From Laetmonice hystrix (lineage: Eukaryota): a DNA stretch of 60,000 nucleotides. Positions 39,117 to 58,210 of the stretch are shown piece by piece; the stretch's first letter is position 1, and every line of letters starts with the position of its first letter. Both the position numbers and the translations under genes were made by a program. Under the pieces are notes generated by a model, which had not been told where the DNA came from, did no database searches, and worked only from the letters and a program-made list of their open reading frames with translations. The stretch is taken from the NCBI GenBank assembly GCA_965235115.1, contig OZ249436.1, positions 18,974,001-19,034,000 on the forward strand, written 5' to 3'.

Positions 39117-39569
39117 TTAGCTTTTGGGGAAGATAGTGCACAAGGATACGACAATGATTGCTAGGTACATGCAGAAGAATAGCCGATCGAGAACCAGCGC
39201 TACTATTCTCCACTCCATCATCACCTTGGCCACTGCGTCTTTTTCCTGTAGCCGCGTCATAAACGACCGCAGCGCCCTCTTGATCTCGCGCACCTCGGAC
39301 TCCATGGCGACGTTATGTAAAGGTGACCTATCAGGGGTTTGGTAACGCGCCTGTACCGGACTGTCACTGCGCTGGGTCATGGACGGTGGTTCCCACTTAT
39401 TGTATGGTAGTATCGGCGACTTTATTTTGCGCTGTTTCTCTTTGCTGTTTTTCCTCCGTGACGTGCAGTCGGTGATGATCGTGTGATGTTCCGCGGTTCG
39501 TCGCTCGGACTCTTTTTTGGGAAAATCTCCGCGCATGAATACCCAGCGGGCGAGGCCGTCTATTAACAC
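39117..39569 (-). CDS. nAChR block A terminal exon (intracellular loop, MA helix, M4)
   Basis: cacacag|GTG TTA ATA GAC; ends [32 protein letters not shown]. Confidence 0.9.
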   Translation of the reverse strand: MLIDGLARWVFMRGDFPKKESERRTAEHHTIITDCTSRRKNSKEKQRKIKSPILPYNKWEPPSMTQRSDSPVQARYQTPDRSPLHNVAMESEVREIKRALRSFMTRLQEKDAVAKVMMEWRIVALVLDRLFFCMYLAIIVVSLCTIFPKS

Positions 39570-42500
39570 CTGTGTGCAGAAAAGCCACATATGATATATA
39601 CGTCTCAACCCTCATCTACCATAGGCGTCGGAACCGGAGTGGTGTTAGGGGAGGGGGTACCCCCAGAAAATATCTCTACTATCACAGAAAAGGTCAAATC
39701 TTCCCGGGAAAATGGCCAAACGGCCGTATAGCCCCCCTTTAATGAAAATAATGATTTCCCATCCGTTCTACAGGGATTCTGACGCCCATGCTTAGACTAG
39801 AGGCATATATTCATAACTGCCATGCAGCTACTTCTAATGCGTGCATTCACGAGTGACCAGTTTAGTTTTAAGTTCCATATCACACCATTCACCAAGTGCA
39901 GCAGTCAGACTCGGGGGTCCTCAGGAACGGAACCACGCGAGACCTGGGCCCCGTTTTTAGTTCGTCATTTTACCAATTTTAAGACTGGAATTTTAAGACT
40001 GACTTGTGTTATGGTCTCTCATTATCTGACTTCATTTGAAGGACCAATCAGAAGCTCTAAAACAAGAGTTCAGCCTTAAGATTTGAATCTTAAGACTGAG
40101 TTTGCAAACTAAAAACCAGGGCCGGGGATTAATCTTTTTGTTTTTCCCACGATTGGAGCATATCTTGTACATAGACAAACATACATTGCGCAGTTTTTTA
40201 AATGTTTGGATTACTTCTTCAAAAAGTCTTGCCTTTAGATTCTCAGCTTAACTTAGCTTGCCCTCTTAGAACTCATGATACAAATGTGCTGGGGTGAGCC
40301 GAGTTGGAAGAAGCTAAGTTGAGCTGAGCCGCTGACCTAGGTCCTTGTAACAAAATAAATCTACATCCTCAGGATATTCTCGATAGGAAAGTGAACACAA
40401 AATTTCAAAAATAAAAAATGTCCCATATGAATCACCCTTCGTGGGATACCAAATCTACAATTGTTCTTCGAATACTACTCAATGGCCTCACAACCACACA
40501 CGATGTTCGATGACCTACTTATGTACCTCCCCGTGCGACATGCAGGAGTGTTTGAACCAAAAACCGCCACCAAAACCTCGATCTGAGAGAGACACTGCCG
40601 ACACCGGCACCTCCTGCGTCTCACCACCGACTGATGGAGGCAGAATCTCCGTACAAGCAATTAACCCGCGCGGAATCCAGTCAATCACTTGGCAAGTAAA
40701 ACAATGGTCGACAATAAAAAAAACGAATTCCGTTCGCTGGAGGGCGCCGTTTCCGTGGTATTGTCAAGGTACGTTTTTACCCAATGTAATTTTTCGATCA
40801 CAGGAATGTGATTAATGTATTGTAACGGTTCGCATCGAGCCACAGATAACAATGTCACAATGGAAATAAGAAATACATTAATCGACAGATATGGAATTGA
40901 AGGCAGGAAGCAGGAAACACGACAATATTCTCAATAACAATCTAATGCCTTCCGTGAGAGAAGAACAAAAGCAAAGGACGGTGATGGCGGAAAGTGACAT
41001 TGCCATTCAGAATACTTCATTTTCCTAATGACAAAAGCTGTGGAGAAGTTATCAAGAAACATTGGTCCCAGTCGGAAGCAGTGTATACACGTCAGATCAG
41101 GAGGCCACGAAGTTTATTGGCTGGAAGCGACATTAACAGTGACCTAGAACTCGACTTTCCGTTCAAGCGTTAGCCGAGCAGGCCCCACATTCCCAGAGAT
41201 AGAGGATCTTTGCCAGGGTGGAAGGCAGAGGACATCGCCGTGCAGATTTCCATTTGCTGTATCACCAGCGCAGAAGAAGCAGCCGCGGGGTTAGAACAAC
41301 CACGTCACCAAGGGTGTTATGACAGGAAGTCAGCACAGGGGGCAGAGATGCGGGGGGAACGCGTCTGCACACGTAGGACGCCAGCCAAGTCAAAGACAAA
41401 ATCACACCCTACCCTTTTCATCCACCAAGGTACCCGATTTCGTCTGTCACCTCGGATATAAATGTTGATGACTATTACGGCGAGGAAAGTAGAAAGGGTG
41501 ATGAGCATCATAATGATACAAAAATAGGCTCCTGAAAACAAAACAGAAACACACCAACTATGTACCATACCCATGGTTACAGTATACGAAACTAACGGTC
41601 CGCACATCATAGGACTGCGATCAACAGCTGCGTAGCGAGGGTTGGTGGTGTCCCAAGTCAAGGGTCGAGAATGAAAATCCCTTTAGTATGGTGGCCCAGA
41701 AGTGCAAAGTGTTGTACTTCACAAACAATTTAAAATTCCTTCGCTTTACACTGAAATTCCTTCGCTTCACACTCCAATTCCTTCGTTTCACATTGAAATT
41801 CCTTGTCCTTTCAGACAATTCCTTGGCTTCACAGTAGAATACCTGGCCTTGACGCTGACATTTCTGTTCTTCACAGGCAATTCGCTGCCTTCTCAGACAG
41901 TTCCTTCGCTGCGAAGGCAAGGAATTAACTGAGAAGGCCAGAAATTTCAGTGTGAAGGCCAGGAATTCCACTGTGAAGGCCAGGAATTCCACTGTGAAGC
42001 GACGTAATTGTGTGTGAAGACAAGAAATTTCTTTGTGAACCACAGAAATTGTCTGTGAAGTACAGCAGTTTGTACTTCTGGGCCACTGTACATTCGAGAA
42101 TGAGCGCGCCCCCTGAATAAAATGAGTAGAGAGACTGTCTTTTTATCAAAAATATATCGGTAAAACAAAATGGTGGCCAGGGTACGGGTCCCCTTAATCC
42201 CTTGCTACGCCACTGTCAACTAGAGCGCTGGTCTTGACACAAAATGACGACAGTCTGGACTTCAACCCAGGATCATGGTATTTTTGTAACGGGAGTTGTG
42301 GGATTGTAAGGTACCGTTTGGAACAAGGTAATTGTGTGACGTCATTTAATGTCGCGACCAAGAGCTCAGCCCGCTCTCAGTATCCAGGTGGTCGTGCGGT
42401 CTATGGCACCATACCCTTTTCATCAAAAATGGCACTCTAGTCCTCTTGTCACCCCGGAAGTATAAGTTGATCACAATGACGGACAGGAAGGTAGATAGAG

Positions 42501-45500
42501 TGATGAGCACCATATTGAGGCCAAAGTAGGCGCCTGAAATGATAACACGAGCAGAAAAAAACATGATCTTTGTTCGATATCAATATTCAACTCGTTTTTG
42601 TCTCATCTGTTGGTAAGGGTAGATGCGCGCGCAGAAAGCCAGTACAATGTATTACATAGGCCTAATATATCCGGAGAGTCCGGCATGGTACTACCCATCG
42701 GCCCCACGAGAGGTCAAATTTGAAACATTAAAGGAAAAAACAAAACGGAAAATAATAATAATAATTGAGTAATGATACACTCTGTTGGATAGTATGATCT
42801 CTGTTGCAGTTTGGATAGTACGATCTTTGTAGTTTACAAGAATTGTTTGACAATGATAATAGGTATTTTGGAAGAGGACTTACTCCCTACCAACGTTTTG
42901 GGCACGGCCAATTTACATAAGAGTTTTGAACTTCAAAGTTGCAATTCACGTCTACTACATTTTGTACTTTATATCATTAATACAATTTTATATATTTTAA
43001 GATAACACTTGGCGACATCTTTGACGACACTGCCATTTCCCTGCAAGACTCAAGAATAAGTTTATATCCACACCCATAAGTACTCCTCAAATACTTGGAA
43101 ATGAAAAACATAATTCGACATAATTATTAGTGCAGTACTTAGTTAAGGAACTCCCAGTTACTGAAGAAGTACAAGACCAACCTTTATTTAGCATCTTTAG
43201 TCTACGATATGGACTAGGACAACGTAGCATTAGATAGACGTACATAACTTACCTATAAAAGGGACAGATGGTAACGTAGATAACTTACCTATAAGGGAGA
43301 CAGATGATAACGTAGAAGGGGACAGATGATAACATAGATAACTTACCTATAAGGGGGACAGATGGTAACGTAGAAGGGGACAGATGATAACGTAGATAAC
43401 TTACCTATAAGGGGGACCGATGATAACGTAGATAACTTACCTATAAGGGGGACAGATGATAACGTAGATAACTTACCTATAAGGGGGACAGATGATAACG
43501 TAGAAGGGGATAGATGATAACGTAGATAACTTACCTATAAGGGAGACAGATGATAACGTAGAAGGGGACAGATGATAACATAGATAACTTACCTATAAGG
43601 GGGACAGATGGTAACGTAGAAGGGGACAGATGATAACGTAGATCACTTACCTATAAGGGGGACCGATGATAACGTAGATAACTTACCTATAAGGGGGACC
43701 GATGATAACGTAGATAACTTACCTATAAGGGGGACCGATGATAACGTAGATAACTTACCTATAAGGGGGACCGATAATAACGTAGATAACTTACCTATAA
43801 GGGGGACAGATGATAACGTAGAAGGGGACAGATGATAACGTAGATCACTTACCTATAAGGGGATAGATGATAACGTAGATCACTTACCTATAAGGGGACA
43901 GATGATAACGTAGATAACTTACCTATAAGGAGGACCAATGATAACGTAGATAACTTACTTATAAAGAGATAGATGATAACGTAGAGAACTTACCTATAAG
44001 GGGGACAGATGATAACGTAGATAACTTACCTATAAGGGGGACAGATGAGGATGCGGGAGGCGTAGAATCAGATAGGATCCGCAGTAGCAAGAAAAATGCT
44101 ACAAATATGTTCATTCCTATGGAGAGATAACAAGACAACAAATACGATTTAAAAGGGAACTTCTGATTTATCCTCGATGATGAAAAGATGAAACTGACTA
44201 ATATATATGGAAATGCAGTGGGGATCCAGGATTTTGCACTCTCCGGACAGAGATCGTTCACTTCATTCAATCTCTGCCACACATTGGGTACATACTCTAG
44301 TATACAGTGACTGTTTGCGGGGCGAAAACCATCACTGTAAGATACGCCCTCTTCACGGACCCGAGATGGGTCTAGATCATTGCGCAGAGCGTTGTGCGGT
44401 GTATCCCGCTGCACGGACAACATGCATGATTCTGAGTGTGTTTATGACATTTTCTCAATTACCCTTCTGATGACATTCGAGTAATTATTCCATTACCGAT
44501 ATCGATGTCCCCATCCATTACTGTGTATAGCTAAAGGCACCCGTGACGGGCAGCCAACCAGCACGGACTGTTTGAACACCCGGATTATATTTAAGCTCAT
44601 TCATGAATACATTCGGTGATCTACTCTGACACTTCACAGAGGATATAATTATTTCGGCGCAGAAATTCGACATCGTGGATTTTTTTTTATTCCCGCAGGA
44701 TGATGAACGCTAGAGAAACGCTGAGCGAACGCCGGGTCGGCACGCATCAAAGAGAATGCGTGGACGAGGGACACTCACCAAGGATCATCTTGGCGGACGA
44801 CTCGGGAGGCAGCCAGAAGATGACGAGAGTGATGGACGAAAGCAGGACACAGGGAAGGATCAGAATGTAACTGTAGAAGGCACCCATACGTTTGACCTTG
44901 AGCGTGAAGGTCAGATCTATGTAGGGTTCCTCGCAGCAGGGGTATCGCTTTTCGTTGCGGATAGCTGGGTGTTCGACCAGAACCCACTCATTACTCTCGA
45001 TGTAATCATTGACGTCTACTTCGTCCAAGTTGTCGTAGAATACAAGATCAAGTTTATGGCCGTCGTAAGTCCAGGACCCGAACTTCATGTGACAGGTCTG
45101 CTCATCAAACGGGAAGTGAGTGATGTCGATGGCACAGGTACTCTTGTATATCCCCATGGGGATCCACAGGACCTGCCCATCACGGCTGACGACGGCCAGG
45201 GCTTCTCTCTGCTCCGTCAGGCGGACGTCGGCACTGATACACAGCAAACGGTGATGTCAGCACGGATACACAGCAAACAATGACGTCGGCACTGATACAC
45301 AGCAAACGGTGATGTCAGCACGGATACACAGCAAACAATGACGTGGGCACTGATACACAGCAAACGGTGATGTCAGCACGGATACACAGCAAACAATGAC
45401 GTTGGAACTGATATACAGCAAAGAATGGTGCCATTACTGACCCACGGAGCAAACAATGACGTCAGTACTGACACACAGCGTTAACAATGACGTCAGCACG

Positions 45501-45897
45501 GACACACAGCAAACGATTACGTCAGCATTGAACACAAATAATAATGTTACAATGACGTCAGCACGACTTCCAAATCAAACATCCAAGACAACCTAAAAAA
45601 AAACGATTGAAAACTTGTAGAAACATTAGTTCCTTGGATGGTAGAAAGATGTTCAATTATCGGCCAAATCACCACCCAAAACATTCATCTGAATTAACTG
45701 CAGTCCAGTGGACGATAAACTCGGACAAAGTGTTTGTAATTCGTCTGATGAACATATTTGTGCGCCTGGAAGGCGCGGCTGACTTACTAGTTATACAGGA
45801 CGATGTCGGGGGTCCAAATCTTCTCAGACGGCACTCTCACGTGGTCCACCCCACCGAAATCTTCCGGGTTCCATCTGAGGAGAATGTCGTTCCACGT
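39117..45897 (-). CDS. Nicotinic acetylcholine receptor alpha subunit, anion-selective type, block A (no own exons 1-3 found)
   Basis: Exons 45897-45788 ([14 protein letters not shown]), 45233-44779 (Cys loop, [10 protein letters not shown]1, PESSAK), M2 44116-44030, M3 42533-42415 or 41531-41413, last exon 39569-39117. Internal exon sizes (110, 455, 87, 119 nt) match block B and there are no stops. Confidence 0.9.
39946..40123. mobile_element. Harbinger-like MITE
   Basis: ggccccgtttttagtt / aactaaaaaccagggcc with internal ttaagact motifs. Confidence 0.55.
41413..41531 (-). CDS. nAChR block A alternative M3 exon b
   Basis: tttcag|GA GCC TAT..AAA AGG|gtaggg; encodes [40 protein letters not shown], 119 nt. 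Confidence 0.86.
41689..42088. mobile_element. TA-target MITE between the two M3 exons
   Basis: ta|tggtggcccagaagtgcaaa..gtacttcaca / tgtgaagtac..tttgtacttctgggccactg|ta; internal 21-bp repeats in both orientations. Confidence 0.8.
42415..42533 (-). CDS. nAChR block A alternative M3 exon a
   Basis: tttcag|GC GCC TAC..AAA AGG|gtatgg; encodes [40 protein letters not shown], 119 nt. Confidence 0.87.
43245..44048. repeat. 36-bp (with 22-bp sub-unit) minisatellite containing the block A M2 splice donor
   Basis: About 19 copies of aacttacctataagggggacagatgataacgtagat. Confidence 0.95.
44030..44116 (-). CDS. nAChR block A M2 exon
   Basis: ccatag|GA ATG AAC..CTT ATA G|gtaagt; encodes [30 protein letters not shown]. 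Confidence 0.88.
44779..45233 (-). CDS. nAChR block A Cys-loop/loop C/M1 exon
   Basis: Within ORF 44747-45247; acceptor tatcag|T GCC GAC, donor CTT G|gtgagt. Confidence 0.92.
45224..45565. repeat. 29/58-bp minisatellite containing a block A splice acceptor
   Basis: Units gacgtcggcactgatacacagcaaac.., degenerating away from the exon. Confidence 0.88.
45788..45897 (-). CDS. nAChR block A 110-nt ligand-binding-domain exon
   Basis: ttgtag|ACG TGG AAC GAC..AAC TA|gtaagt; 4 amino-acid differences in 36 versus the block B exon, with many synonymous changes. Confidence 0.88.
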
Positions 45898-47354
45898 CTA
45901 CAAATATACACACCACAGGTTTCCATCCGGGTTCTTTGGATTCACACCCATTCACACTGGGCCCCTGGCAGGATCCACTTAGTGGGTTGGTGGGGCGGGG
46001 GATACTTCTACCAGAGGACCATCCTCAGCTCAATTTTGTAATCAAAGTTTATTGTAACTTGGCCCTGGCTGTTGCTGGGAGGTGAAACTCCATTGCAAGT
46101 TGCGGAGAGGTCCTTTTCTTGGGCATCTAGCCGAACTTGAATAAAACCCTGACATCGCGTCGAGTTATGGTTGTAATATTATTTTATTCATTATTATGAA
46201 TTCATCAAGTTATACATATTAGGCTCTTGTTTTACTCGTATTCAATTGCATGTCATAGTTTGATGATGATCAATATTGATATGATTCATGATTGATCAAT
46301 ATTGATATGTTTCACTCAGTATTTTTGGGGGTAATGTACATGTAGGCCTAGGTAGCAAGACTAGTAAATTGTACTTTGTTTTCCATGTTTATTCAAGTGT
46401 GGGAGTGTATAGCATGCGTAAATAAAACTGTTGACCGCGCGGAGCGAGAAAATTTTTTGGTCTTTTAATTTTTTTAGCAGTTTCGGGCAGATTTGTTTAT
46501 AAATCTACTGGCTGTCAACAATCTATTTTTTTCACACACATTGCTAAACAAAGTATTTTTTTCACAAACATCTGGGAGCAAACAATTTTTTTGGGTCAAC
46601 TTGGCAAACAAACTATTTTTTCTACAAAAAAAAACCATACCCCCCAGCTATTAAATGGTCTGCCCCTAATCATAATCGGACTTCATTCAAATTTTACATA
46701 AAGATTCATGCTTCTTTGTAAAATTATAAAAAATATATCAAGAATTTATTGCAATAACTTTAAAGACTGTGAATACGGTCTGCATCTAATGTTAATTGAC
46801 TCCTGTTGAACCCGAAAGAATGCGGTACTTTCCACAGAATTGTGGTGTCACCTATATCTTTCGAAACACAAAGATTAATTTTGAGGTGGCAGAAAATCAA
46901 ATAACTCGATCTGGAGTCCTGGGCCGGTTTTACTAAAGGTCGATAATAACGCCGTCGATAATTTAACATAGAAGTGAATGGTTGCTAGGTCGTTATTTTA
47001 GACGTTAAATGTTAAATTATCGACGTCGTTATTTTCGACTCTTGATGACGGCAGGGCGTCGCTTGATGAGTCTGTTTTTTTTGGTCCCTCGCTGGTCGGA
47101 CCTTCCGTCGTTCGTTATGAAACATCCCCCAATCACAGCTGCCTCTAACATCTTTAGGCCAATAGTGACTCGAGTGCCGAATTCCAAAACATATATCACT
47201 GATACCTTACAATGTCTTATTTTAAATTAAATCAACAAGAAGACAATTTTTACTCAAATATTTACTCCTCTTTATTGAGCAATGACTTACAGCGGTAATA
47301 TATAAAGGTACATACAAAAGCCGGGCGCCCAGGTACACTCTGATATAGGTCTTC

Positions 47355-47900
47355 TGGCCTGGTACAGGTACTTTGTCCGGCCTGGTACAAGTACTTTGTC
47401 CGGCCTGGTACAAGTACTTTGTCCGGCCTGGTACAGGTACTTTGCCTGGCTGGGTACAGGTATTTTGCCTGGCCGGGTACTGGTACTTTCTCCGCTCTCG
47501 TACCGGAACTTCCGGGTACGCATGCCTTCAGCAGTCAGTGACGCATTCTGGGAGTGGGTTGAGGATTTGCCCACCAGCATCGACATGGTTGACTGGTCAT
47601 TGGCCGGCATCTATGACATGGTTGACTGTTCATTGCCTAGTAACCATGCTATGGTTGACTGGGTATTGGCCGGCAGCCATAACATGGTTGACTGTTCATT
47701 ACCCAGTAACCATGCTATGGTTGACTGGTCATTGGCCGGCAGCCATGACATGGTTGACTGGTCATTGCCCGGTGGCCATGACATGGTTGACTGGTCATTG
47801 CCCGGTGGCCATGACATGGTTGACTGGTCATTGCCCAGTGGCTACGCCATGGTTGACTGTCATTGTCCTGTAACCATGCCATGGTTGACTGGCCATTGCA
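47355..47900. repeat. Two adjacent minisatellites (23 bp and 33 bp)
   Basis: cctggtacaagtactttgtccgg about 6 times (47355-47490); catgacatggttgactggtcattgcccggtggc about 10 times (47580-47900). Confidence 0.9.
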
Positions 47901-50900
47901 TCGACTGATCAATACAAATGAGCTTTACACCCACAAATCTATTGCTGGTGCTCAGGTGATATGTATCCTAGAATTATCAGTTTTAGGAACCCATCCTTGT
48001 GGTTAACATCGACGGTTCATGTTAGAACGAGAAATCTACAGGTTTGAATGTTGGCAGGGGGACATTCCTTTTACACAGGATGCGATACAAATGACACCAT
48101 GTATTTATAAGCCCACCTTGCACGGTATTCATGAGTCATCAATAGCAAACCTAAAACGCAATAAAGACAGGCCCAATGTCATCGCAATTGCTCATTACTG
48201 CCAAAGATAGTACACACATGTAGTGTACTAACGGGGAGGGAGGTTCCGGATGGTTAAACCAACAACCCAAGAACCTTGGCCTACGCTGGTACATGGGCTT
48301 CCAGGATAGCAAACTGATCCGCTGAGCAATGCTTTGATTTACGTTGCAATGCATTGATCCAATGAACAATGTTTTGATCCACATAGCAATGCCACTTATC
48401 AATGCCACAGATGAGGATAGAGGAACCTCTATTTCAGCCTTTTTTTCTTCCTTTTTGTAGACATGAATTATCATGAATTAGCTTCAAATGTATAGGCCTC
48501 CACTAATCTTTCTTTATACATCAAGTCCAATGATCATCCTGTAATCTGTTCTGTATGAGTGTGGTATATAATTATTAGGGAAGACCAAATTATTCACGTA
48601 ATGAAAAACTGCGAGGGTTACATATCCCAACTGTACGGGCATCTTTGGACGATATACACACATTACAAACCCGCTAGGGACTATTTTTGTGTATCTCCCA
48701 ATGGTGTGCTTACAATTCCAAGGCTAGAAATTGGTCTAACAGAAAGGTTGGAATAGAAGAGGTAGGCCTACGCGCCAATTTGGACAACATCACGACATAG
48801 ATTTGCATCGCAGCAAGGGATCCTCTATTTTAATTAAAGAATCTGTTTGCAGTGTTATGACTCTTGGGTTGTATTTCTACAAAATGTGTGTTAATCGGCA
48901 CTGGTCATCTGTGAGGAGGGATACCGGATCGGGTGCGCATCACAGACTTTAAATATCGATGATTGTCAGCCAATCGGACGTCGACCCAAGATTGTGACGT
49001 CAGCCAGGCCCGACACTCGCCCACTGTGACGTCACACCGTTATCGTTCGCTTGACATGCATATATCAGGATCACATAGCATACATTAGGCCTATATCTAG
49101 TTATTACGCATGAGTTATATTGTTTCCGTCGTCTCTAATGTTACTTGTCTCACGTGATGATATCGGTTTCTTCGGGGGCACTATTAGTTGAGCCTAATTG
49201 GCTCACCTTTGAGTGACGTAACAATGGTGCATTTGACAAAGTAAAATCTCAGCTGTGTGGCTCTTCAAGTTCGGTCTGGAGGAGGGTGGCACTCCGGTTG
49301 TTGTGGCGGTCAGACCACAGCGACATCTGTCGTATAAACCCAGAGTTGTGTCACCGATGTGTTGACGGGGGAGGGGGTCCGAGCCGAACCCCACCTTGTC
49401 ACGTGATTACAAAGACGCCGAAGAAGTACCAGATCAAAGGATCACGACTTCTAAAAGACGACTATAGAAACAGGTGCGCCCGGAAGGAGAGAGATGTGCC
49501 CCGAAGGCTGGTAGCTTCAGCAGCAGCTGCTTTGTTAGTACGGTTGATACGAATAGTGCCCCTATGTGACATTGATAACCTCTCTCTATCTAAGGATGGG
49601 CCTGCTAATGATGGTCACGTGACCAGGCGCACAGGTGGGACGTAAGGTGAGAGACGCCAGTAAGGAGACGCTCCACCGGACAATGGGTGTGGGTCACAGA
49701 ACATCTCGAGGGAAGAGAACAGTGGGCGATTATGACCTCATTTGAAGGAGAGACGAACTGAAGACAAGGCGGAGGCCTATTGCTATTACTCGCACGTTCT
49801 GATTTTAAAACATACAGTTACCAAAGCCATGTTTCCACTGCTCGGGGAACAAACACTCAAATCTGGCATATTCTGGCCAGCTTTATAACCGATATATACA
49901 ATTTCTGGCGGTCATCACTAGTAATACTATTGGCAAATCCGATCTCCCAAACTAGGCCTATAGCTAATGTTTGAGAGTATAGGTTTGAATGGAATCGTTT
50001 AGGTTTTATGGAAGTCAGTTTTGATCTAGCGACGTTTATATTTGTTGTGCAGGAATGATCTGAAAAGGAGAGTTCACATATCAAAGCGGGCCGACCATGT
50101 GGACGCGCTTCAATACAAACTATCTTAACTATACGCCTCGCTTTGAACACGGCATACGGGTGAGGCCAGCCAATCAGATCACGTTTTACTAGTGGCATCT
50201 GACTGGCTGCGTAGTTTTAACGTTTTACGAAGCGACCCACAATAAACTTCACTCCTTGCTTCCGCTGTAGATCTATGCTCACTGCAGAGGTGTTGCCATG
50301 GTAACCAGTCCAAATGACTGGTCGTCTTGGTGACTGGTTCTTATGTACAGGTTGGCGACGACTGGAGGTGCAGTAGGCAATGTCTCAACGATCGGTCATC
50401 ATCATACTGCATAATAATAATATCAGAACTAACCAATTTTGACGATTAGTGTCGTGGCGCCTTAATGACGGCGACACGTGACCTAACATTCGGTAGGGTA
50501 TATAAAAAGGGGATGCTCACCCATACTGGCTGATTGAGATACGTACCAAACGTCGTTAGGTTTGTCAACGAATAATGCAACAAAGTTGACGTCCATTACT
50601 TGACCAACTCTACGACAGAACTCGGTGTCTGAACATCACCTCTACAGCAACAATAAAAACAGGCATGTAGACCTAGCAGGTTACAACATCTCGGCTCCGA
50701 ACTGTGAATACCTTTACCCGCTCTGTGAACTTGTATGTCAATGTTTCTGTATAAATTGAACTTCATAACATGTAGGCAATTGAATTAATCAACACATCAT
50801 CCTTATATACCATGACACGACCTTACGGCCACACCCTATACCCACTAGTAGATTGCCTTGTCTATTTGAAGTCGGATACACCTTCTTTTACTATGGAAAT

Positions 50901-52071
50901 ATAATTCCTATATACCTTATCCTCTAGCTACTTGCTTACCTGGATAACGTACTAAAAGGTAATTTGATGGCGATCTCTTAACGCTATATGAATATTTGTT
51001 CTTTATTACTACCCACCTCTGTCTGTCTCCTCGAACAGTTACAACAAGATAAAGCAAGTGTCATTTCTCACATCCACTATCGGCCACACACATTCATTCC
51101 AACATAATATCGGATTGACATCAATGCAAATCAACGAAACTGGCATTTCTTACGGTCTAATGTGATTACCTCCATATCAACAAATGTGATTTAGAATACT
51201 GGGATACAAATCTTAAACTACGACATTTTTATGACCGTGCCGACACTGATATAGCCTCCTCACTGTATTATATATATTGGACACCGTTTACATTAGCTGT
51301 ACATCCCGAACTATATCAAAGGAATCACTGGTCAGTATAATGTCTGTTTGTCAAACAACATCAAGCACGGACGCCCATGAAAGTAGAAAAAAATCAAAAT
51401 TCATAAACCCCGTACCGTAACGGTCAGACTTGCTGGCCACTTGTTATCCTGCCGCACATTTCTAATATAAAACGTGTATCTCCACGGGTCCAGGCCGATG
51501 CTTCAACGCACCGCACGTGGGGATGGGGAGGCCCATGACTAGAATATCCCTAATGACTAGGATGAATAAAGTCCTCTTGGCAAGCCAGGTAGGCGTAGTT
51601 GTATGCAAGTTGTACATAATCCGTTGTACATTGCGTCACCGTATTGTGACGTCATCGCACCACGTCGTGCATTATCTTGGATGGAAAACCACGTTATGGA
51701 TTTCCCTGCTCACGGCTTTATGGGTAACGAAAAGCCTGGTCTCGTTAAATCTCGCCATATCACAGACATCTGGCGTGAACATAGTGGACGTCCCAAATAG
51801 GTAACAAGGTCAAGGCAACGTAACCTGACTACGTAACAGAGTATCAACTGCCAAGATAATTTGGAACAGGGACTGCTACGTCGCCGTCACATCCGGGTAT
51901 CTCTCTCTCAACTGCTATCCTCGACGTAACTGAAACCTTGGACGAGATGTGAGAGTAGACCAACCAGTAGCACCGATTCTGGGAAGGCAGTTTTCAAAAC
52001 AAAATCTACACTTAACATATTCACACAAACAGATGACGGACACGAACTGGTCTTTTTTTTGCATTTGAATT

Positions 52072-52515
52072 TCATGCTTTCGGGAATATGGTTGCCAAGG
52101 AAACAATAATCGTACACAAGTACATAAAGAAGAAAAGCCGATCCAATACTCGGGCTACAATCCGCCATTCCTTCGCCACTTTGCCTTGAGCGTCCTTTTC
52201 ATTTAGACGGTTAATAAAGGTCCGCAGGATCCTTTTTATTTCTTTAATGTCATTTTCTATTGCTTGATTGTGCAATGGCGAATAGTCTGGCGTGGCGTGA
52301 GATCGAGAGGACGTGCCCCCGTCTCGGTAGCCGTCAAACACAGGCGCTTGAAATTTATTGTATTCAAGCTTTGGACATTTTATTTTCTTTCTTTCCTTCC
52401 CGTGTTTGCTGTGTGAGCCGTCAAGGCTCACTGTATGGTCTTGCCGCGAGGTGTCTGCGTCTGTGACCACCTCACTGCGCATGCACAGAATTCGAGCCAG
52501 GCCGTCGACCATTAC
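52072..52515 (-). CDS. nAChR block B terminal exon (intracellular loop, MA helix, M4)
   Basis: ttttag|GTA ATG GTC GAC; ends [32 protein letters not shown]. Confidence 0.9.
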   Translation of the reverse strand, partial: VMVDGLARILCMRSEVVTDADTSRQDHTVSLDGSHSKHGKERKKIKCPKLEYNKFQAPVFDGYRDGGTSSRSHATPDYSPLHNQAIENDIKEIKRILRTFINRLNEKDAQGKVAKEWRIVARVLDRLFFFMYLCTIIVSLATIFPKA

Positions 52516-55500
52516 CTAAAATATAGAAAAAAGGGGTTACATTTTACACTACCTTTGTATATCTCATTACCCGCGATATAGTTCTTTACGCCAATGGTGC
52601 GTGATATTAAAAGTGTCTGTCTAAAAAGCTGAACAAGTATGGAGAAGACGCATGCATACAAGGCCAGGGTAGCATGGGTTCAGCACATTGGTTACAAGCC
52701 AAAACAGCAAGCGCTTCAAACCTAATGGTGTCGAGACAGACTTCGGCCACAGTGTCTCATAGAACTCTACGCGGGCGTGCCCAGAGCCGCACGCAGCCAA
52801 GGTTGGGGGGGGGGGGGGGTATAATATTATGTCCAAAAAAGTAATGTTTTCAGGATTATCTCGGAGTGGGGGAGGGGTGGTGGCTTCTCCCAGCCTCATC
52901 CTTACTAGACTAGGTACGGCCCTGGTGTCTCGCCCTACACAAATCGACCCTGGCAAACCTGTGCGGTGTCAATACATGAATCCTCTCAATAACCACTATT
53001 TATACACGTGGACTGAGCGTCACGTGACATAATACCACGTGACTTGACTCTTTTACTCAGATTACTCACCCGTTTGAGCCATTTGGGCACCCGGCTTCTT
53101 TTATCTCCCCGGAAGTAGAGGTTTATCACGATTACCGACAGGAAAGTCGATAGTGTTATAAGAATCATATTTAAACAAAAATACGCCCCTGGAACAAAGA
53201 GAGAATATCATGTAAGTGGCCTCCAACGTTACCTCAATAACGTTCTCAATCTGCTACATTACTGATTCCAAAGCAGGGTATAATATCACTAATGATGGGG
53301 TATTCCAAAGATATTACATTGGAATCACTGAAGGGATGAGCTGGAAATAACTTAAACAGATTTGATATAAAATCATAGTATTATTTAAATATTAGCGCCT
53401 AGATACCTTTGGAAATATGTAATACTTCGACAATTACGTATTGTTACATACGTTTACGTCCGTATTAAATTTATTGTTCTAAACACAATAGGCAATATTA
53501 CGATGGCCATACTTAGGATGATCATGTTCAGTTGTAGGCCTATCTAATGAGGCCGTCTGTAGGTGAGCCTTTCACAGATATCACCAAAGCACACACTGGG
53601 AGTGGCGGGTTGCTAGCCGGAGGTTGCCGTCTGCTGGAGCAGGCGAACGCTGTCCCGTCAACTAGGGGGCGCTGCGGCGCCTACTTCCGGCAGACGGCAG
53701 CCTCGATGTCCTTTTGCATGTGCACCGGTGTCTCCATCTAGCGGAATCAATCCAAGTCTGCGTTCTTTTGATCACTTCAGCCTGCGTCTCAATTTTGTAC
53801 ACGCGTTTGCATCGTTAGGAGGAGTCGCACTGGACCCAACTAACGAAACACCTTGGACTTTGAGACTGTAACGTCCATTTTAATTTGGAGTGGGGACTGC
53901 TGTGAGTGCGCCAATTTTGATTGCTTACATTGAGCCCGCCGTCGTTCCACATTTCGTCACAGGTCAACAATGCCTCCGACACAACCGGGGCAAGGGGAAC
54001 CATGCCTCCGACACAACCGGGGCAAGGGGAACCATGCCTCCGACACAACCGGGGCAAGGGGCTACCGCGGCGCCCTGCTAACACTAGGGGACCTGAATTT
54101 ACCAGTGTATGAGTATTTCCGTCTTTCTGTATTTCCAAATGGTCGGGATAATAAAAGAAAAATGTGTAATTTCTGTGAATAACCGCAGTGGTAGGTGTTT
54201 CACACGTCTATGAAAATACTGATGCAAAACTCGTGCATAACTAAAATACTCTGAATCCAAATGGGTGGCTGTGACCCTCGCTTGACTTTTGGTTCTTGTA
54301 TTTATAAAATAAACAGGGCCCCGAAAAAAAGTTGAGAATTTCTCGTTGACGACATTATCTGCCGTGTGATGTTGAATGAAACGGATAAACTTTATCCGTA
54401 CACGTCTGGTTGGCTGCCATCAGGGTTTTCGTTGGTCAAATAAAACGGAGAGGGCATAAAAATAAGGAAGTTAGGTATGGACTTCGAAAACCCGATTCCT
54501 ACCTATGAGCGGCACTGAGGACGCGGCGGGCGGCGTGGAGTCGGCAAGTAGTAGGAGCAACAAGAAAAATGCCACAAATATGTTCATACCTGGGTATAAA
54601 GAGGAGACAATAGGAGATCGGCGTCAATGATCAAAAAACCAGGCATGAAGTAATGATTAACACAATGGAAGACCTAACAACTCATAATGTAACGGACTAG
54701 GGGCGACGAACGGTGCACATCCAGAACGGCTCTAAGTATGGAACAGAAAAAACATTGGAAGCCGGCCGCAGTACATTGGAGGTATGGATGGAAACCGGGT
54801 TGGCCTACCTATGAGAGGTATGGAAGAGGCGGCCGGAGGCGTAGAGTCCGCTAGTAGAAGTAGTAAGACGAAGAACGCCACAAATATGTTCATACCTGCA
54901 TAGGGTAAAGGGAGGCACACCATTTAATGTCTCATTTACAAAAAACGCGAACGCCGCACAGATCTGGTCCTTTCTCTGATGTTAGTTTTCGACAATTTGG
55001 AAGCGGCCGGCGAACAAAGATCGTGGCGTACGTTTTGTTTGTCTCCATCGTTTTTGTCTTGAGGTTCGGGTATTAATATGTTCACACGGACTGTGGCGTA
55101 CGTTTACTATTTATTCGATAAAAAGAAACCTGACAACTGCGTCTTAGAAAGGAGGCAACTATGACGGTGTCTCAGATCGGAAGCCAGCATACCGGCGTCA
55201 TAAAATGCCAGCATCGCCTGAGGACGTTCTGACAACTGATCTGGTGCCGTCATGTATCAACTGATCTGGTGCCGTCATGTATCAACTGATCTGGTGCCGT
55301 CATGTATCAACTGATCTGGTGCCGTCATGTATCAACTGATTTGGTGCCGTCATGTATCAACTATGGCGGATTTATCTAACCGTAGCACCGCTCGATCGCT
55401 CTATCCTACTCATCGTCATATTGCAAGAAAACAGCAGAAGATTACTGTTTTGTGGAATTTCAGAAAGGGTGATTTCAATTCCACGACGGCTTGTCCAGCA

Positions 55501-58210
55501 ATGTTGTCAATAACGAACTCGTCTTTCCACACGACGACACATTGGCTGGACAGACACCAGCCTTATACTCTGGATCTGCTGGATCTCTGGATCTGGAACT
55601 TTATGTCTCTAACATCTCTAACATAACTCTGCCTCCGTATAACTTTACATCCCGGCCTCACCGACCTATTCCATCTTGACGTCTCGGGTCTAACAGGCCT
55701 ATTTCTTCTTCACGTCTCCGGCCAACGGAACAATGCCTCCTTATAGAACTTTACAGTGACCATGAATACTAATTCAAAGAAGAGTAGAATAAGGTCACGT
55801 GACGTGACACGGAGACGCCGAACATTAGATTCACGGCAATCGACGCTGGTAGAATCGGTCACTCTAACCCCTCCGTCTCACTACGATCGGTAAAAGTAAG
55901 TCAAATACTTCCAATTTACGATATGCCAAGATATGCTCAGACACGAACATGAAAGATTGATACGGGGGAAAACTAGAGGAAGAGATGTTTCGAACTCGTC
56001 TGTTAGTACAGCGGCCAAGGCGGGTTTTCCTGCGCGCTTTTTCAATTCTAGCGCAAAGCAACAGGGAGTGAAGAGGACAACTTTGGAAGTGTTTCATGCC
56101 ACTAAAAGATGCCAAAAAGATTTCCCAACGTAGGAAGGAAGATAACGTGGACACATAGGGGACCATGACAGATCATCATGTACTCGCCTTCCTTAATGTG
56201 GCACCGTTTGGCGCGCTCTAGCGGATGTAAACTAAATCATGATTAAATGCGTATCTTTATCTTTACCTTATAAATGTTCCATTACGAAACTTTTACAGCA
56301 TTTTACATTGTAAGCAAATAAACTTACTATGTGATATTATACAGAGTTCTTACTGCAATATGAATACTGACATTACTTGATATTGAATTAAAATTGTCGA
56401 GTTACAATTAGGGGAAGGCGCAGGCTATCATTTCTTTAATATATCGTGGTTTTTATGTCTGCCTTGAGCGCCGGGTATATGAGAGGAAGTGAAAAAACAC
56501 AGGCATAACACGTCAAGGGCGACAGTACTGGCCAGACAGCATAATCCGGGACAAGGGCTGAGTCCTGGCCAAGGAGCTGGTCCTGGACCCTGGACAAGGA
56601 GCTGGTCCTGGACAAGGATCTGATCCTGGACAAGGAGCTGGTCCTGGACAAGGAGCTGGTCCTGGACAAGGAGCTGGTCCTAGACAAGGATCAGGTTACC
56701 TTCCAGGTTTGTCCGACCAAATATTGCTAAATTCAAAATGATCCAAATGGTCACTTCCTGATTCGAGAAAATCGTGATAATATCACGTGATGGGGGGGGG
56801 GGGGACGCCGGCATTAGGCCCCCTTATCGGGGGGTCTTCTTAAAAAGTTAAAGTTTTTCTGGGTGCTAATTTGAATGACTTGACCCTGGATGCATTGTTG
56901 TTGTTCTAGTTCATTAGGACGACGGGAACTGTTATGGATAGTGTCGCCTCAACATTGAGTTATCATCAGGAAGGCACAGAACCCTCTTTATACCGTGACA
57001 TATAGTTCCTGGGGCGTGTTGGTAATTCGATGTGTCACAGGTGAGGGAGGATGGGGGGCCATACTGCCGCCGTTGAGGTTGGGAATACGCCCGCTACTTA
57101 CCTAAAATCATTTTGGCTGGGGACTCCGGCGGTAGCCAGAACACCACCAGTGTCAATGAAGATAGCAACACACACGGCAATATAAGGATGTAGTTGTAGA
57201 ACGCAGCGATACGTTTTAATTGTAGAGTAAATGTCAAATCAGGATAGGGCTCTTCGCAGCAAGGGTAGTACTTGACGTTCTTCTTGGCCGGGTGGCCGAG
57301 CAGAGCCCACTCATTGCTCTCTATGTAATCACTAACATCAACTTGTTCCAAAGCATCGTAGAAATCAATATCCAGTTTAAAACCGTCATACGTCCACGAT
57401 CCGAACTTGAGGTGGCAGACCTGTTCGTCGAACGGGAAATGCGTGATGTCAATGGAGCATGTCGACTTGAAGATGGCCATAGGGATCCAGAGCACCGTAC
57501 CATCGCTCGATACCACAGCCATCGCCTCGCGCTGCTCCTTAAGACGCGTGTCGGCGCTGGACGCGGCAGGAAGTGACGTCAGAAGAGGGCAGACGGCAGG
57601 TAGTGGCGGGCGAGGGGAGGGAAAAGGAACAGCATAGGATCACCAACAGGACGTGCGTGGGCACTCGCTAAACTTATCACAACCTTCATCGAAACTCAAT
57701 CTATCCAATATACGCATCTCGAAAACTCTAGCGAGGATGGGCGGAAAACATTCAGGAAATCGATCTCAAAACTTCCTTAAATCTAATTTAGAAGACAACA
57801 GATATTTAACGCCGTAGATCTCACAAAGATGGAAAACGCAAATGCAGCTATTTGGCCCGTCTGTATTGGATGTTATAAGATACCAGTGCCCGTGTATTAC
57901 AAGGTGCGGTTGACGAAGCCAACTCATAGACTCATCATTTCTTAAAGTTTCCTCTCGCTATTACTCACTTTTATAAATCAGAGTATATATACTCACTAAC
58001 TATGAAGCACTATTTAGGCCCACTCACTATTGGGTGGAGGAACTATTTGTAAAGCAGTGTGTGTTGTGTAGTCACTAGATATTAGGGAGTGTGTACTCAC
58101 TAGTTATAAAGCACTATGTCCGGGGTCCAGATCTTGGTGGCAGGTACACGAACGTGATCCACGCCTCCAAAATCATCAGGGTTCCAACGAAGTAAGATAT
58201 CGTTCCATAA
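52072..58210 (-). CDS. Nicotinic acetylcholine receptor alpha subunit, anion-selective type, block B (exons 1-3 outside the window)
   Basis: Exons 58210-58101 ([14 protein letters not shown]), 57556-57102 (Cys loop [15 protein letters not shown], loop B WTYDG, loop [11 protein letters not shown]1, PESPAK), M2 54895-54809 or 54589-54503, M3 53188-53070, last exon 52515-52072 (M4 [10 protein letters not shown]). All GT-AG and phase-compatible. Confidence 0.92.
53070..53188 (-). CDS. nAChR block B M3 exon
   Basis: ttccag|GG GCG TAT..AAA CGG|gtgagt; encodes [40 protein letters not shown]. Confidence 0.9.
53659..53674 (+). promoter_or_regulatory. CTCF-like motif
   Basis: caactagggggcgctg is close to the CTCF core CCACTAGGGGGCGC; motif match only. 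Confidence 0.35.
53968..54062. repeat. 33-bp tandem repeat, about 3 copies
   Basis: atgcctccgacacaaccggggcaaggggaacc. Confidence 0.9.
54503..54589 (-). CDS. nAChR block B alternative M2 exon b
   Basis: cccag|GT ATG AAC..CTC ATA G|gtagga; encodes [30 protein letters not shown], 87 nt; absent from the ORF track. Confidence 0.86.
54809..54895 (-). CDS. nAChR block B alternative M2 exon a
   Basis: tgcag|GT ATG AAC..CTC ATA G|gtaggc; encodes [30 protein letters not shown], 87 nt. Confidence 0.88.
55233..55362. repeat. 25-bp tandem repeat, 5 copies
   Basis: caactgatctggtgccgtcatgtat. Confidence 0.93.
56555..56692. repeat. 18-bp tandem repeat
   Basis: ctggacaaggagctggtc about 7 times. Confidence 0.9.
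57102..57556 (-). CDS. nAChR block B Cys-loop/loop C/M1 exon
   Basis: Overlaps ORF 57094-57522; acceptor gtccag|C GCC GAC, donor TTA G|gtaagt. Confidence 0.93.
58101..58210 (-). CDS. nAChR block B 110-nt ligand-binding-domain exon
   Basis: tttcgcag|TTA TGG AAC GAT..TAT AAC TA|gtgagt; encodes [36 protein letters not shown]. Confidence 0.9.

What the first reader, a model, noticed from the sequence alone, without database searches (positions are those of the whole stretch)
54503..54895. Duplicated pore-lining M2 exons differing at 13'
Seen: two 87-nt phase-1 exons 219 nt apart, both with valid splice sites, many synonymous differences and only two amino-acid changes: V/L at M2 13' (counting K as 0') and I/V in the M2-M3 loop. 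Known: 13' faces the pore and affects selectivity and gating in alpha7, and insect alpha6 has mutually exclusive versions of the equivalent M2 exon (exon 8). Inference: independent evolution of mutually exclusive pore exons in an anion-type nAChR.
Basis: partly seen in the sequence, partly recalled or inferred. Interest (0 to 1): 0.75.

Follow-up and report, generated by a model that had tools for sequence, protein, structure and literature searches.

The report
Two alternative pore exons, chloride-type acetylcholine receptor
A worm-like animal's acetylcholine-gated channel gene of the chloride-type family carries two old, well-kept copies of the small exon that lines the pore, almost certainly used one at a time; genome annotations of a brachiopod, octopuses and scallops already show the same splice choice.

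Summary
On the minus strand, 54895-54809 (A) and 54589-54503 (B) are two 87-nt exons 219 nt apart. Both have AG/GT sites and both are in phase 1. They differ at 18 nt but only 2 residues (V/L at M2 13', I/V at 29').

They belong to an alpha-type nAChR subunit gene of the Pro-Ala ('PPESPAK', anion-type) lophotrochozoan clade. By the tree, the genome is probably an annelid.

- **Selection:** synonymous sites are near saturation (pS 0.65) and omega is 0.03, so both copies have stayed under protein-level selection for a long time.
- **Fit:** only one copy fits the gap in the Pfam membrane profile.
- **Relatives:** RefSeq isoforms of Lingula and Octopus swap the same exon with the same V..I / L..V signature. 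Scallop isoforms also swap it. One Dimorphilus gene model holds both copies in tandem.

No RNA run exists for this genome, so mutually exclusive use here is inferred, not shown.

'Independent evolution' is only partly supported. The pair is old and not private to this gene. Independence from insect alpha6 exon 8 is plausible but untested. The scan has noted the same kind of exon pair before in arthropod DNA.

Side finding: the tandem paralogue downstream has a duplicated M3 exon and no N-terminal exon of its own.

The parts
58101..58210 (-). Gene 1 exon, 110 nt, encoding [36 protein letters not shown] (ligand-binding domain, loop-D region). It ends TA|GTGAGT.
   Evidence: Sequence read. Pfam Neur_chan_LBD positions 57-91, E 2.4e-11. 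tblastn with homologues.
57102..57556 (-). Gene 1 constitutive exon, 455 nt. It encodes the Cys-loop (C-x13-C), loop C with YYPCC, M1 and the start of M2, including the Pro-Ala-Lys motif (-2', -1', 0'). The donor is G|GTAAGT.
   Evidence: Pfam Neur_chan_LBD E 2.9e-33, and Neur_chan_memb profile positions 1-29. 79% identity to Owenia P0003.
54809..54895 (-). M2 exon version A, 87 nt, phase 1-1: (G)[28 protein letters not shown](G), with V13' and I29'.
   Evidence: It is nearest to the single M2 exon of the third paralogue in the same genome (15 nt and 1 residue different). (V,I) is the commonest type in the family, 59 of 105 parsed exons.
54503..54589 (-). M2 exon version B, 87 nt, phase 1-1: (G)[28 protein letters not shown](G), with L13' and V29'.
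   Evidence: It differs by 1 residue from the second M2 copy in Dimorphilus P0008. (L,V) is the second commonest type, 23 of 105.
53070..53188 (-). Gene 1 M3 exon, 119 nt, AG|GG...CGG|GTGAGT.
   Evidence: Pfam Neur_chan_memb profile positions 61-97.
52072..52515 (-). Gene 1 last exon: intracellular loop, M4 and the stop codon.
   Evidence: Pfam Neur_chan_memb positions 104-228.
56983..56994 (-). Candidate 'docking' element, GGUAUAAAGAGG, 108-119 nt downstream of the constitutive donor.
   Evidence: Perfect 12-nt complement of 54604-54593 (I17). It is the only other match in the 60-kb window at up to 1 mismatch. Statistically weak; see the full report.
54593..54604 (-). Candidate 'selector', CCUCUUUAUACC, in the pyrimidine tract directly before the CAG acceptor of exon B.

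Best explanation
The two 87-nt exons are alternative, one-per-transcript versions of the exon that encodes M2 from 5' to its end plus the M2-M3 loop. The gene encodes an alpha-type (YxCC) acetylcholine receptor subunit of the Pro-Ala clade, the family that holds the Lymnaea and Schistosoma acetylcholine-gated chloride channels. The constitutive donor at 57102 joins either A (54895) or B (54589), and the chosen exon joins 53188. This gives two subunits that differ only at 13' (V or L, in the hydrophobic part of the pore) and at 29' (I or V, next to the conserved loop proline that couples binding to gating). The Pro-Ala charge-selectivity motif lies in the constitutive upstream exon. The switch therefore most likely tunes gating, conductance or block sensitivity rather than anion-versus-cation choice. 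Shown: the anatomy, the age of the duplication, purifying selection on both copies, that only one copy fits the fold, and alternative use of the same exon in annotated or assembled transcripts of other lophotrochozoans. Inferred: alternative use in this animal, the functional effect, and how double inclusion is avoided. For that last step the only candidate is an intronic 12-nt pairing that links the region after the constitutive donor to exon B's acceptor.
For: - **Anatomy:** both copies have the same length and phase and both have AG/GT sites.
- **Selection:** by Nei-Gojobori, 15 synonymous changes on 23.2 sites (pS 0.65, dS 1.49) against 3 non-synonymous steps on 60.8 sites (pN 0.049), omega 0.034. 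None of 100,000 random placements gave 2 or fewer residue changes.
- **Age:** pS between A and B (0.65) is as high as between these exons and the M2 exons of two paralogous genes (0.61-0.77). Introns share nothing beyond the splice sites.
- **Fit:** in the Pfam membrane profile the upstream exon ends at position 29 and the M3 exon starts at 61. That leaves room for one exon of about 30 residues, not two.
- **Lingula:** isoform X2 differs from X1 only in this exon, L..KV against V..SSI.
- **Octopus:** in the Octopus 'alpha-3' cluster, 7 of 15 listed members carry V..SSIPLIG, 3 carry L..ATVPLIG, 2 lack the exon and 3 are truncated before it. Four of 4 unnamed Logan contigs of 2.1-2.5 kb encode uninterrupted 500-504 aa proteins with the L form, so they are transcript-like.
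- **Scallops:** in the 'alpha-10-like' cluster, 4 members carry one version and 4 the other.
- **Dimorphilus:** P0008, in the same starred annelid clade as this gene (99*), has both copies in the same order: a non-L 13' with I29' first, then L13' with V29'.
Against: There are no transcript data for this genome.
- 87 is a multiple of 3 and the 219-nt intron between A and B is long enough to be spliced, so neither reading frame nor steric hindrance enforces exclusivity.
- RefSeq holds a both-exon isoform in Argopecten (P0199) and exon-skipped isoforms in Octopus and Aplysia. The Dimorphilus model joins both copies. These may be artefacts but show that other outcomes are modelled.
- The RefSeq isoforms are predicted models, and I could not inspect their RNA support.
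- Of the 20 protein clusters examined, 16 showed a single M2 version. The other four are Lingula, the Octopus 'alpha-3' cluster, the scallop cluster, and a Logan-only cluster whose flanking residues are identical to the Octopus 'alpha-3' proteins in the stretch printed (probably the same gene).
- The candidate RNA pairing is about what chance gives in 4 kb.
Confidence: 0.75

Rival explanations
1. Only one copy is really used. The other is a silent or very rarely spliced relic of an exon duplication, as reported for exon 8c of silkworm alpha6, where only 8b was found in cDNA.
For: No RNA evidence here. Most related genes show a single version: 16 of 20 clusters, and the third paralogue and gene 2 in this genome have one M2 exon each. 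The silkworm precedent is in PMC1919356 (passages).
Against: A silent exon would not keep an open frame, both splice sites and 27 of 29 residues while its synonymous sites approach saturation (omega 0.034; pS as high as between paralogous genes). Both versions match residue types that are widespread and functional elsewhere in the family.
Confidence: 0.1
2. The choice is alternative but not strictly exclusive. Sizeable fractions of transcripts skip both exons or include both, giving in-frame non-channel or dominant-negative products.
For: 87 nt keeps the frame in every combination. The 219-nt internal intron is spliceable. RefSeq models with both exons (Argopecten P0199) or neither (Octopus P0171 and P0173, Aplysia P0162) exist.
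Against: A subunit with no M2, or with two M2 halves, cannot match the Pfam membrane profile. Such models are a minority of the listed isoforms and may be annotation noise.
Confidence: 0.12
3. Both exons are constitutive and are translated in tandem, as in the Dimorphilus model P0008.
For: P0008 contains both copies in series.
Against: It would add 29 residues of half a helix plus a loop between M2 and M3 and invert the topology of M3 and M4. No solved nAChR aligned has such an insert. Lingula X1 and X2 differ only in this exon, one version each, and Octopus X1 and X2 likewise.
Confidence: 0.03

Closest known systems
Insect nAChR alpha6 mutually exclusive exons 8a/8b/8c (and 3a/3b)
   Same: Tandem homologous exons, used one at a time, that include part of the pore-forming TM2 (PMC6393475 introduction). 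The insect duplication is old and kept at the protein level while nucleotides diverge (PMC1919356 passages). Owenia isoforms of the orthologous gene also swap the loop-D exon, the counterpart of insect exon 3.
   Different: Alpha6 is a cation-type, alpha7-like arthropod subunit with usually three versions. This gene is a Pro-Ala (anion-type) lophotrochozoan subunit with two versions. Whether the two duplications share an origin was not tested. That the 87-nt exon size matches insect and vertebrate alpha7-type genes is recalled, not checked.
RefSeq isoforms of Lingula anatina 'alpha-5' (X1/X3/X4 vs X2), Octopus 'alpha-3' (e.g. O. sinensis X1 vs X2) and scallop 'alpha-10-like' (X1 vs X2)
   Same: The same exon of the same PPESPAK family is swapped. 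In Lingula and Octopus the same signature appears as here, V13'..I29' against L13'..V29'. By the tree, Lingula lies in the same starred 20-row clade as this gene (95*).
   Different: They are predicted models in other phyla. The L-type exon is one codon shorter in Lingula and Octopus. The scallop versions both have V13' and differ at other sites. The Octopus and scallop genes belong to other subclades.
Acetylcholine-gated chloride channels of Lymnaea and Schistosoma (SmACC), nAChR-derived
   Same: The Pro-Ala motif replaces the M1-M2 Glu (PMC4055736 passages). Lymnaea, Biomphalaria 'type B' and Schistosoma proteins are among the hits with the same PPESPAK...MNIFVAFF sequence and sit in the same tree.
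   Different: PMC4055736 does not contain the word 'splice', and the lophotrochozoan nAChR survey PMC6896357 has 'splic' only in its reference list. Chloride selectivity of this subunit is not shown.
Docking-site/selector RNA pairing in mutually exclusive splicing (Dscam1 type)
   Same: A complement of the sequence just upstream of a variable exon lies in the intron just after the constitutive exon.
   Different: It is a single 12-nt pair with no conservation test and weak statistics. A matching selector for exon A is only imperfect. The Dscam comparison is from a search listing (PMC8791459) and from recall.
C. elegans unc-49 complex locus (for the side finding on gene 2)
   Same: Shared 5' exons are spliced to alternative tandem blocks of 3' exons, giving distinct Cys-loop receptor subunits (PMC6920096 passages).
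   Different: Here the sharing is only a hypothesis, drawn from the absence of an N-terminal exon for gene 2. The shared part would be just the first 85 or so residues.

Membership tests
Cys-loop (pentameric) ligand-gated channel, nicotinic receptor subunit | Neur_chan_LBD and Neur_chan_memb domains | tested here: met
   Pfam PF02931 E 2.9e-33 and 2.4e-11. PF02932 above its cut-off on two exons, 30.4 and 31.7 bits against 28.1. Best solved relatives are alpha4 and alpha7 nAChR, E 1e-87 to 8e-92 for homologue P0003.
Cys-loop (pentameric) ligand-gated channel, nicotinic receptor subunit | Cys-loop C-x13-C, and vicinal cysteines in loop C (alpha-type) | tested here: met
   [15 protein letters not shown] and YYPCCEEPY in the translation of 57556-57102.
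Pro-Ala (anion-type) nAChR clade (Lymnaea ACh-gated Cl channel, SmACC) | Pro-Ala in place of the M1-M2 Glu (-2', -1') | tested here: met
   [12 protein letters not shown]; the alignment to alpha4 puts A opposite Glu -1'. The motif is defined in PMC4055736.
Pro-Ala (anion-type) nAChR clade (Lymnaea ACh-gated Cl channel, SmACC) | Groups with known members in a tree | tested here: met
   Quick ML tree of 43 rows with the M2 exon removed. Gene 1 lies inside a starred clade (99*, 38 rows) that also holds the Lymnaea, Schistosoma and Fasciola rows.
Pro-Ala (anion-type) nAChR clade (Lymnaea ACh-gated Cl channel, SmACC) | Chloride-selective current gated by acetylcholine | not testable with these tools
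   Needs electrophysiology.
Mutually exclusive tandem exon pair | Adjacent homologous exons of equal length and phase with intact splice sites | tested here: met
Mutually exclusive tandem exon pair | Both copies under purifying selection; only one fits the protein | tested here: met
   Omega 0.034 with pS 0.65. The Pfam profile gap, positions 30-60, fits one exon.
Mutually exclusive tandem exon pair | Transcripts carry one or the other, not both | not testable with these tools
   No RNA data for this genome. In relatives it is seen in predicted isoforms and in 4 transcript-like Logan contigs.
Insect alpha6 exon-8 system (common origin) | Orthology of the gene or of the duplication | not tested
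   No arthropod sequences were fetched. The gene belongs to a clade made only of lophotrochozoan, flatworm and rotifer rows, which held no arthropods by design.
Competing RNA pairing (docking/selector) control | Conserved complementarity between one docking site and a selector at each variable exon | tested here: inconclusive
   One perfect 12-nt pair for exon B. Two such pairs were found in 4 kb, where my estimate expects about 0.5 by chance. No related genomic DNA was available to test conservation.

The most novel reading that the evidence does not exclude
The whole 20-kb region is one complex locus of the unc-49 kind. A single set of 5' exons, of which the only N-terminal exon found lies about 3.8-4.0 kb beyond the window end, is spliced either to receptor body 1 (58210-52072), which holds the alternative M2 pair, or to receptor body 2 (45897-39120), which holds an alternative M3 pair. 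One promoter would then yield four chloride-type acetylcholine receptor subunits. The V13'/I29' versus L13'/V29' M2 pair would be an ancient lophotrochozoan switch that predates the split of annelids, brachiopods and molluscs.
Probability: 0.2. Interest if true: 0.7.

Novelty: new member of a known kind. Interest (0 to 1): 0.45.

Why it matters
Acetylcholine-gated chloride channels derived from nicotinic receptors mediate inhibitory cholinergic transmission in molluscs and flatworms, and they are discussed as antiparasitic targets (PMC4055736).

If the exon choice is real, these animals diversify the pore of such channels by splicing, at a position (13') that was one of three changes needed to turn alpha7 anionic (PMC6800317). 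The choice also touches the gating loop. This parallels what insects do with alpha6 exon 8.

The recurrent V..I / L..V pairing across phyla offers a natural experiment on how 13' and the M2-M3 loop co-adapt. It also bears on gene annotation: several gene models in this family either omit the short M2 exon or join both copies.

In four full-text searches and two papers whose passages I read, I found no description of this splice choice in lophotrochozoan receptors. It is, however, already visible in RefSeq isoforms, so the step beyond what is known is modest.

Tried and rejected
- **RNA runs:** no RNA holder was listed; three runs of one sample hold the stretch as DNA. Laying them gave contigs only and no joints, so it says nothing on splicing.
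- **Earlier findings:** searches by place and by sequence returned nothing.
- **Homologue search with the last exon:** it found a 97%-identical fragment (P0222, unnamed ENA contig of 56 kb) from a close relative. That fragment is a read-through ORF of one exon.
- **Search with the N-terminus of P0025:** it returned only P0025 itself and P0035, so the shared-5'-exon idea could not be tested in another species.
- **Unrestricted RNA duplex folding of intron pieces (one search timed out):** this gave long, loopy interactions, none better than shuffles except docking against selector B (2 of 100 shuffles as good). I do not lean on it.
- **Steric hindrance and frame or NMD as enforcers of exclusivity:** rejected, because the internal intron is 219 nt and the exons are 87 nt, a multiple of 3.
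- **Recent duplication or gene conversion over the whole exon:** rejected by pS 0.65. The first 19 nt, which include 5 synonymous third positions, are identical, and this is unexplained.
- **Paper PMC6725845 (van Nierop 2005):** not held. What I say of Lymnaea comes from PMC4055736.

Full report
**What is there**

The gene lies on the minus strand. Exon A (54895-54809) and exon B (54589-54503) are each 87 nt and are separated by 219 nt. Each follows a pyrimidine tract plus CAG and is followed by GTAGG.

The upstream exon ends G|GTAAGT at 57102, and the next exon starts after AG at 53188.

- A reads (G)[28 protein letters not shown](G).
- B reads (G)[28 protein letters not shown](G).
- They differ at 18 nt in 16 codons. 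Fourteen codons are purely synonymous and two change the residue.
- Similarity ends at the splice sites: the repeat unit is 95 nt at 81% identity (D3).
- DNA contigs of 1231 nt from runs X1 and X2 (one sample, possibly the source of the assembly) bridge both exons without a difference.

**The gene**

Open stretches and tblastn with homologues give these exons:

| Exon | Content |
|---|---|
| 58210-58101 | Loop-D region of the ligand-binding domain |
| 57556-57102 | Cys-loop [15 protein letters not shown], loop C YYPCC, M1, start of M2 |
| A or B | M2 from 5' onward, M2-M3 loop |
| 53188-53070 | M3, 119 nt |
| 52515-52072 | Intracellular loop, M4, stop |

One further exon lies beyond the window end, at L002 3841-4047.

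Pfam finds Neur_chan_LBD and Neur_chan_memb. The constitutive exon reads [12 protein letters not shown]. An ungapped alignment of the close homologue P0003 to human alpha4 (6ur8_A, E 8e-92) puts Ala opposite the cation-type Glu at -1', Lys at 0', the V/L site at 13' and the I/V site at 29', just before the conserved loop Pro.

Pro-Ala at this place is the mark of the nAChR-derived chloride channels of Lymnaea and Schistosoma (PMC4055736, passages).

Of 824 candidates, 594 proteins matched the large exon. The best was 81% identical (unnamed), then Owenia at 79% and Lineus at 77%. None was identical, so this genome's proteins are not in the collection.

A quick ML tree of 43 rows, with the M2 exon cut out, places gene 1 in a starred annelid clade (99*, 10 rows). 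That clade also holds Owenia P0003, Dimorphilus P0008, Helobdella, Intoshia and the gene-2 group. Lingula, Lineus, Watersipora and flatworms join it in a starred 20-row clade (95*).

**Are both copies alive?**

By Nei-Gojobori, there are 15 synonymous differences on 23.2 sites (pS 0.65, dS 1.49) and 3 non-synonymous steps on 60.8 sites (pN 0.049), giving omega 0.034. None of 100,000 random placements of 18 changes left 2 or fewer residue changes.

pS between A and B equals that between these exons and the M2 exons of gene 2 and of a third paralogue at C1:67.78 Mb (0.61-0.77). By the tree, those genes split before annelid lineages diverged. The duplication is therefore old, and both copies have been kept as protein-coding sequence.

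**Only one can be used per subunit**

In the Pfam membrane profile, the upstream exon ends at position 29 and the M3 exon begins at position 61. One exon of about 30 residues fills that gap.

**Relatives**

- **Dimorphilus P0008** (same clade) contains both copies in series..FFF..SIPKIG, then ..FFL..SVPLIG. The second copy differs from exon B by 1 residue.
- **Lingula anatina** isoform X2 differs from X1 only in this exon, L13'..KV against V13'..SSI. X3 and X4 carry the V form.
- **Octopus 'alpha-3' cluster:** of 15 listed members, 7 have V..SSIPLIG, 3 have L..ATVPLIG, 2 lack the exon and 3 are cut before it.
- **Logan contigs:** a separate cluster of 4 unnamed contigs (2.1-2.5 kb, uninterrupted 500-504 aa) all carry the L form, so it is seen in assembled transcripts.
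- **Scallop 'alpha-10-like':** 4 members carry one version and 4 the other, one isoform has both and one has a partial exon.
- **Remaining clusters:** 16 of the 20 examined show a single version, and Aplysia adds a skipped isoform.

Among the 120 best hits, 105 M2 exons from 104 proteins could be parsed and 16 proteins could not. The counts by 13' and 29' residue are (V,I) 59, (L,V) 23, (L,I) 6, (V,V) 4 and others 13. These counts are not phylogenetically independent. Exons A and B are thus the two main 'flavours' of the family.

**Mechanism of choice**

Frame and steric hindrance do not enforce exclusivity, because the exons are 87 nt (a multiple of 3) and the internal intron is 219 nt.

One candidate element exists. 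GGUAUAAAGAGG, at 108-119 nt after the constitutive donor (56994-56983), is the perfect complement of CCUCUUUAUACC in exon B's pyrimidine tract (54604-54593) (I17). These are the only two matches in the window at up to 1 mismatch, against 0.26 expected.

However, two perfect 12-nt inverted pairs were found in the 4-kb region, where I estimate about 0.5 by chance. Only the position makes this one interesting. I rate it a lead, not evidence.

**Likely function**

The selectivity motif is constitutive. The switch changes side-chain size in the hydrophobic stretch of the pore (9' is already Val here) and the residue before the gating-loop proline. I infer that it tunes gating or conductance.

The relevance of 13' rests on alpha7 E237A, V251T and a Pro insertion being needed for anion conversion (PMC6800317, passage).

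**Comparison and novelty**

Insect alpha6 has mutually exclusive exons 8a/b/c that include part of TM2, and exons 3a/b with loop D (PMC6393475, passages; PMC1919356, passages). Owenia isoforms P0003 and P0133 swap the loop-D exon of the orthologous gene, which extends the parallel.

Full-text searches found no paper on alternative M2 exons in lophotrochozoan or anion-type nAChRs. In PMC6896357 the term 'splic' occurs only in the reference list. In PMC4055736 'splice' does not occur. Subscription papers and supplements were not seen.

The feature is nonetheless already present in RefSeq isoforms. The scan has also noted arthropod counterparts on other DNA.

**Verdict**

This is a real, old and almost certainly alternatively spliced exon pair. 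It is a new member of a known kind. The claim of independent invention is only partly supported.

Noticed in passing
window 39120-45897, minus strand: There is a tandem paralogue, gene 2, about 70% identical to gene 1, with orthologue-like rows from Lamellibrachia and Paralvinella. It has a single M2 exon (44116-44030, L13'/V29', 'LLLRILSDS') but two M3 exons, 42533-42415 and 41531-41413. Each M3 exon is 119 nt with AG/GT sites. They differ at 32 nt, with pS 0.69 and pN 0.14. Because 119 is not a multiple of 3, including both would shift the frame, so this is a second likely mutually exclusive pair.
   Followed up: partly
window 45900-52070, and L002 3841-4047 (3.8-4.0 kb beyond the window end): Only one copy of the highly conserved N-terminal exon (SDEKRLIK...LDEKNQVLTTNVWSRY) was found in 80 kb. 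It lies upstream of gene 1, and none lies between gene 1 and gene 2. Gene 2 may borrow gene 1's 5' exons, as the C. elegans unc-49 locus does (PMC6920096), or it may lack a start. The Lamellibrachia and Paralvinella models of this gene also lack the N-terminus.
   Followed up: partly
window 43233-44048: A minisatellite with a period of about 36 nt and more than 20 copies. On the gene strand its unit is the last nucleotides of gene 2's M2 exon plus its donor (..CTTATAG|GTAAGT..). The intron therefore starts with an array of repeated copies of the 5' splice site.
   Followed up: partly
window 54877-54895 and 54571-54589: The first 19 nt of exons A and B are identical, including 5 synonymous third positions, while the rest differs at 18 of 68 nt. 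Gene 2's exon shares most of this stretch, but the third paralogue does not. This could be a splicing enhancer, a structural constraint or a short conversion tract; it is unexplained.
   Followed up: no
G000 C1:67779300-67789200 (L001): A third family member in the same genome. It has a single M2 exon of the canonical V13'/I29' '[14 protein letters not shown]' type and is sister to Capitella P0009 in the tree (96*).
   Followed up: yes
window 56528-56714 and 55208-55387: Two tandem arrays lie inside the 2.2-kb intron upstream of exon A: an 18-nt period array and a 25-nt period array whose copies are nearly perfect (D1 and D2).
   Followed up: no
proteins P0043, P0046, P0064, P0099, P0105, P0162, P0171, P0173: Several database models of this family jump from ..PAKxxLG straight to M3, so they lack the short M2 exon. 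The exon is easily missed or skipped in annotation.
   Followed up: no
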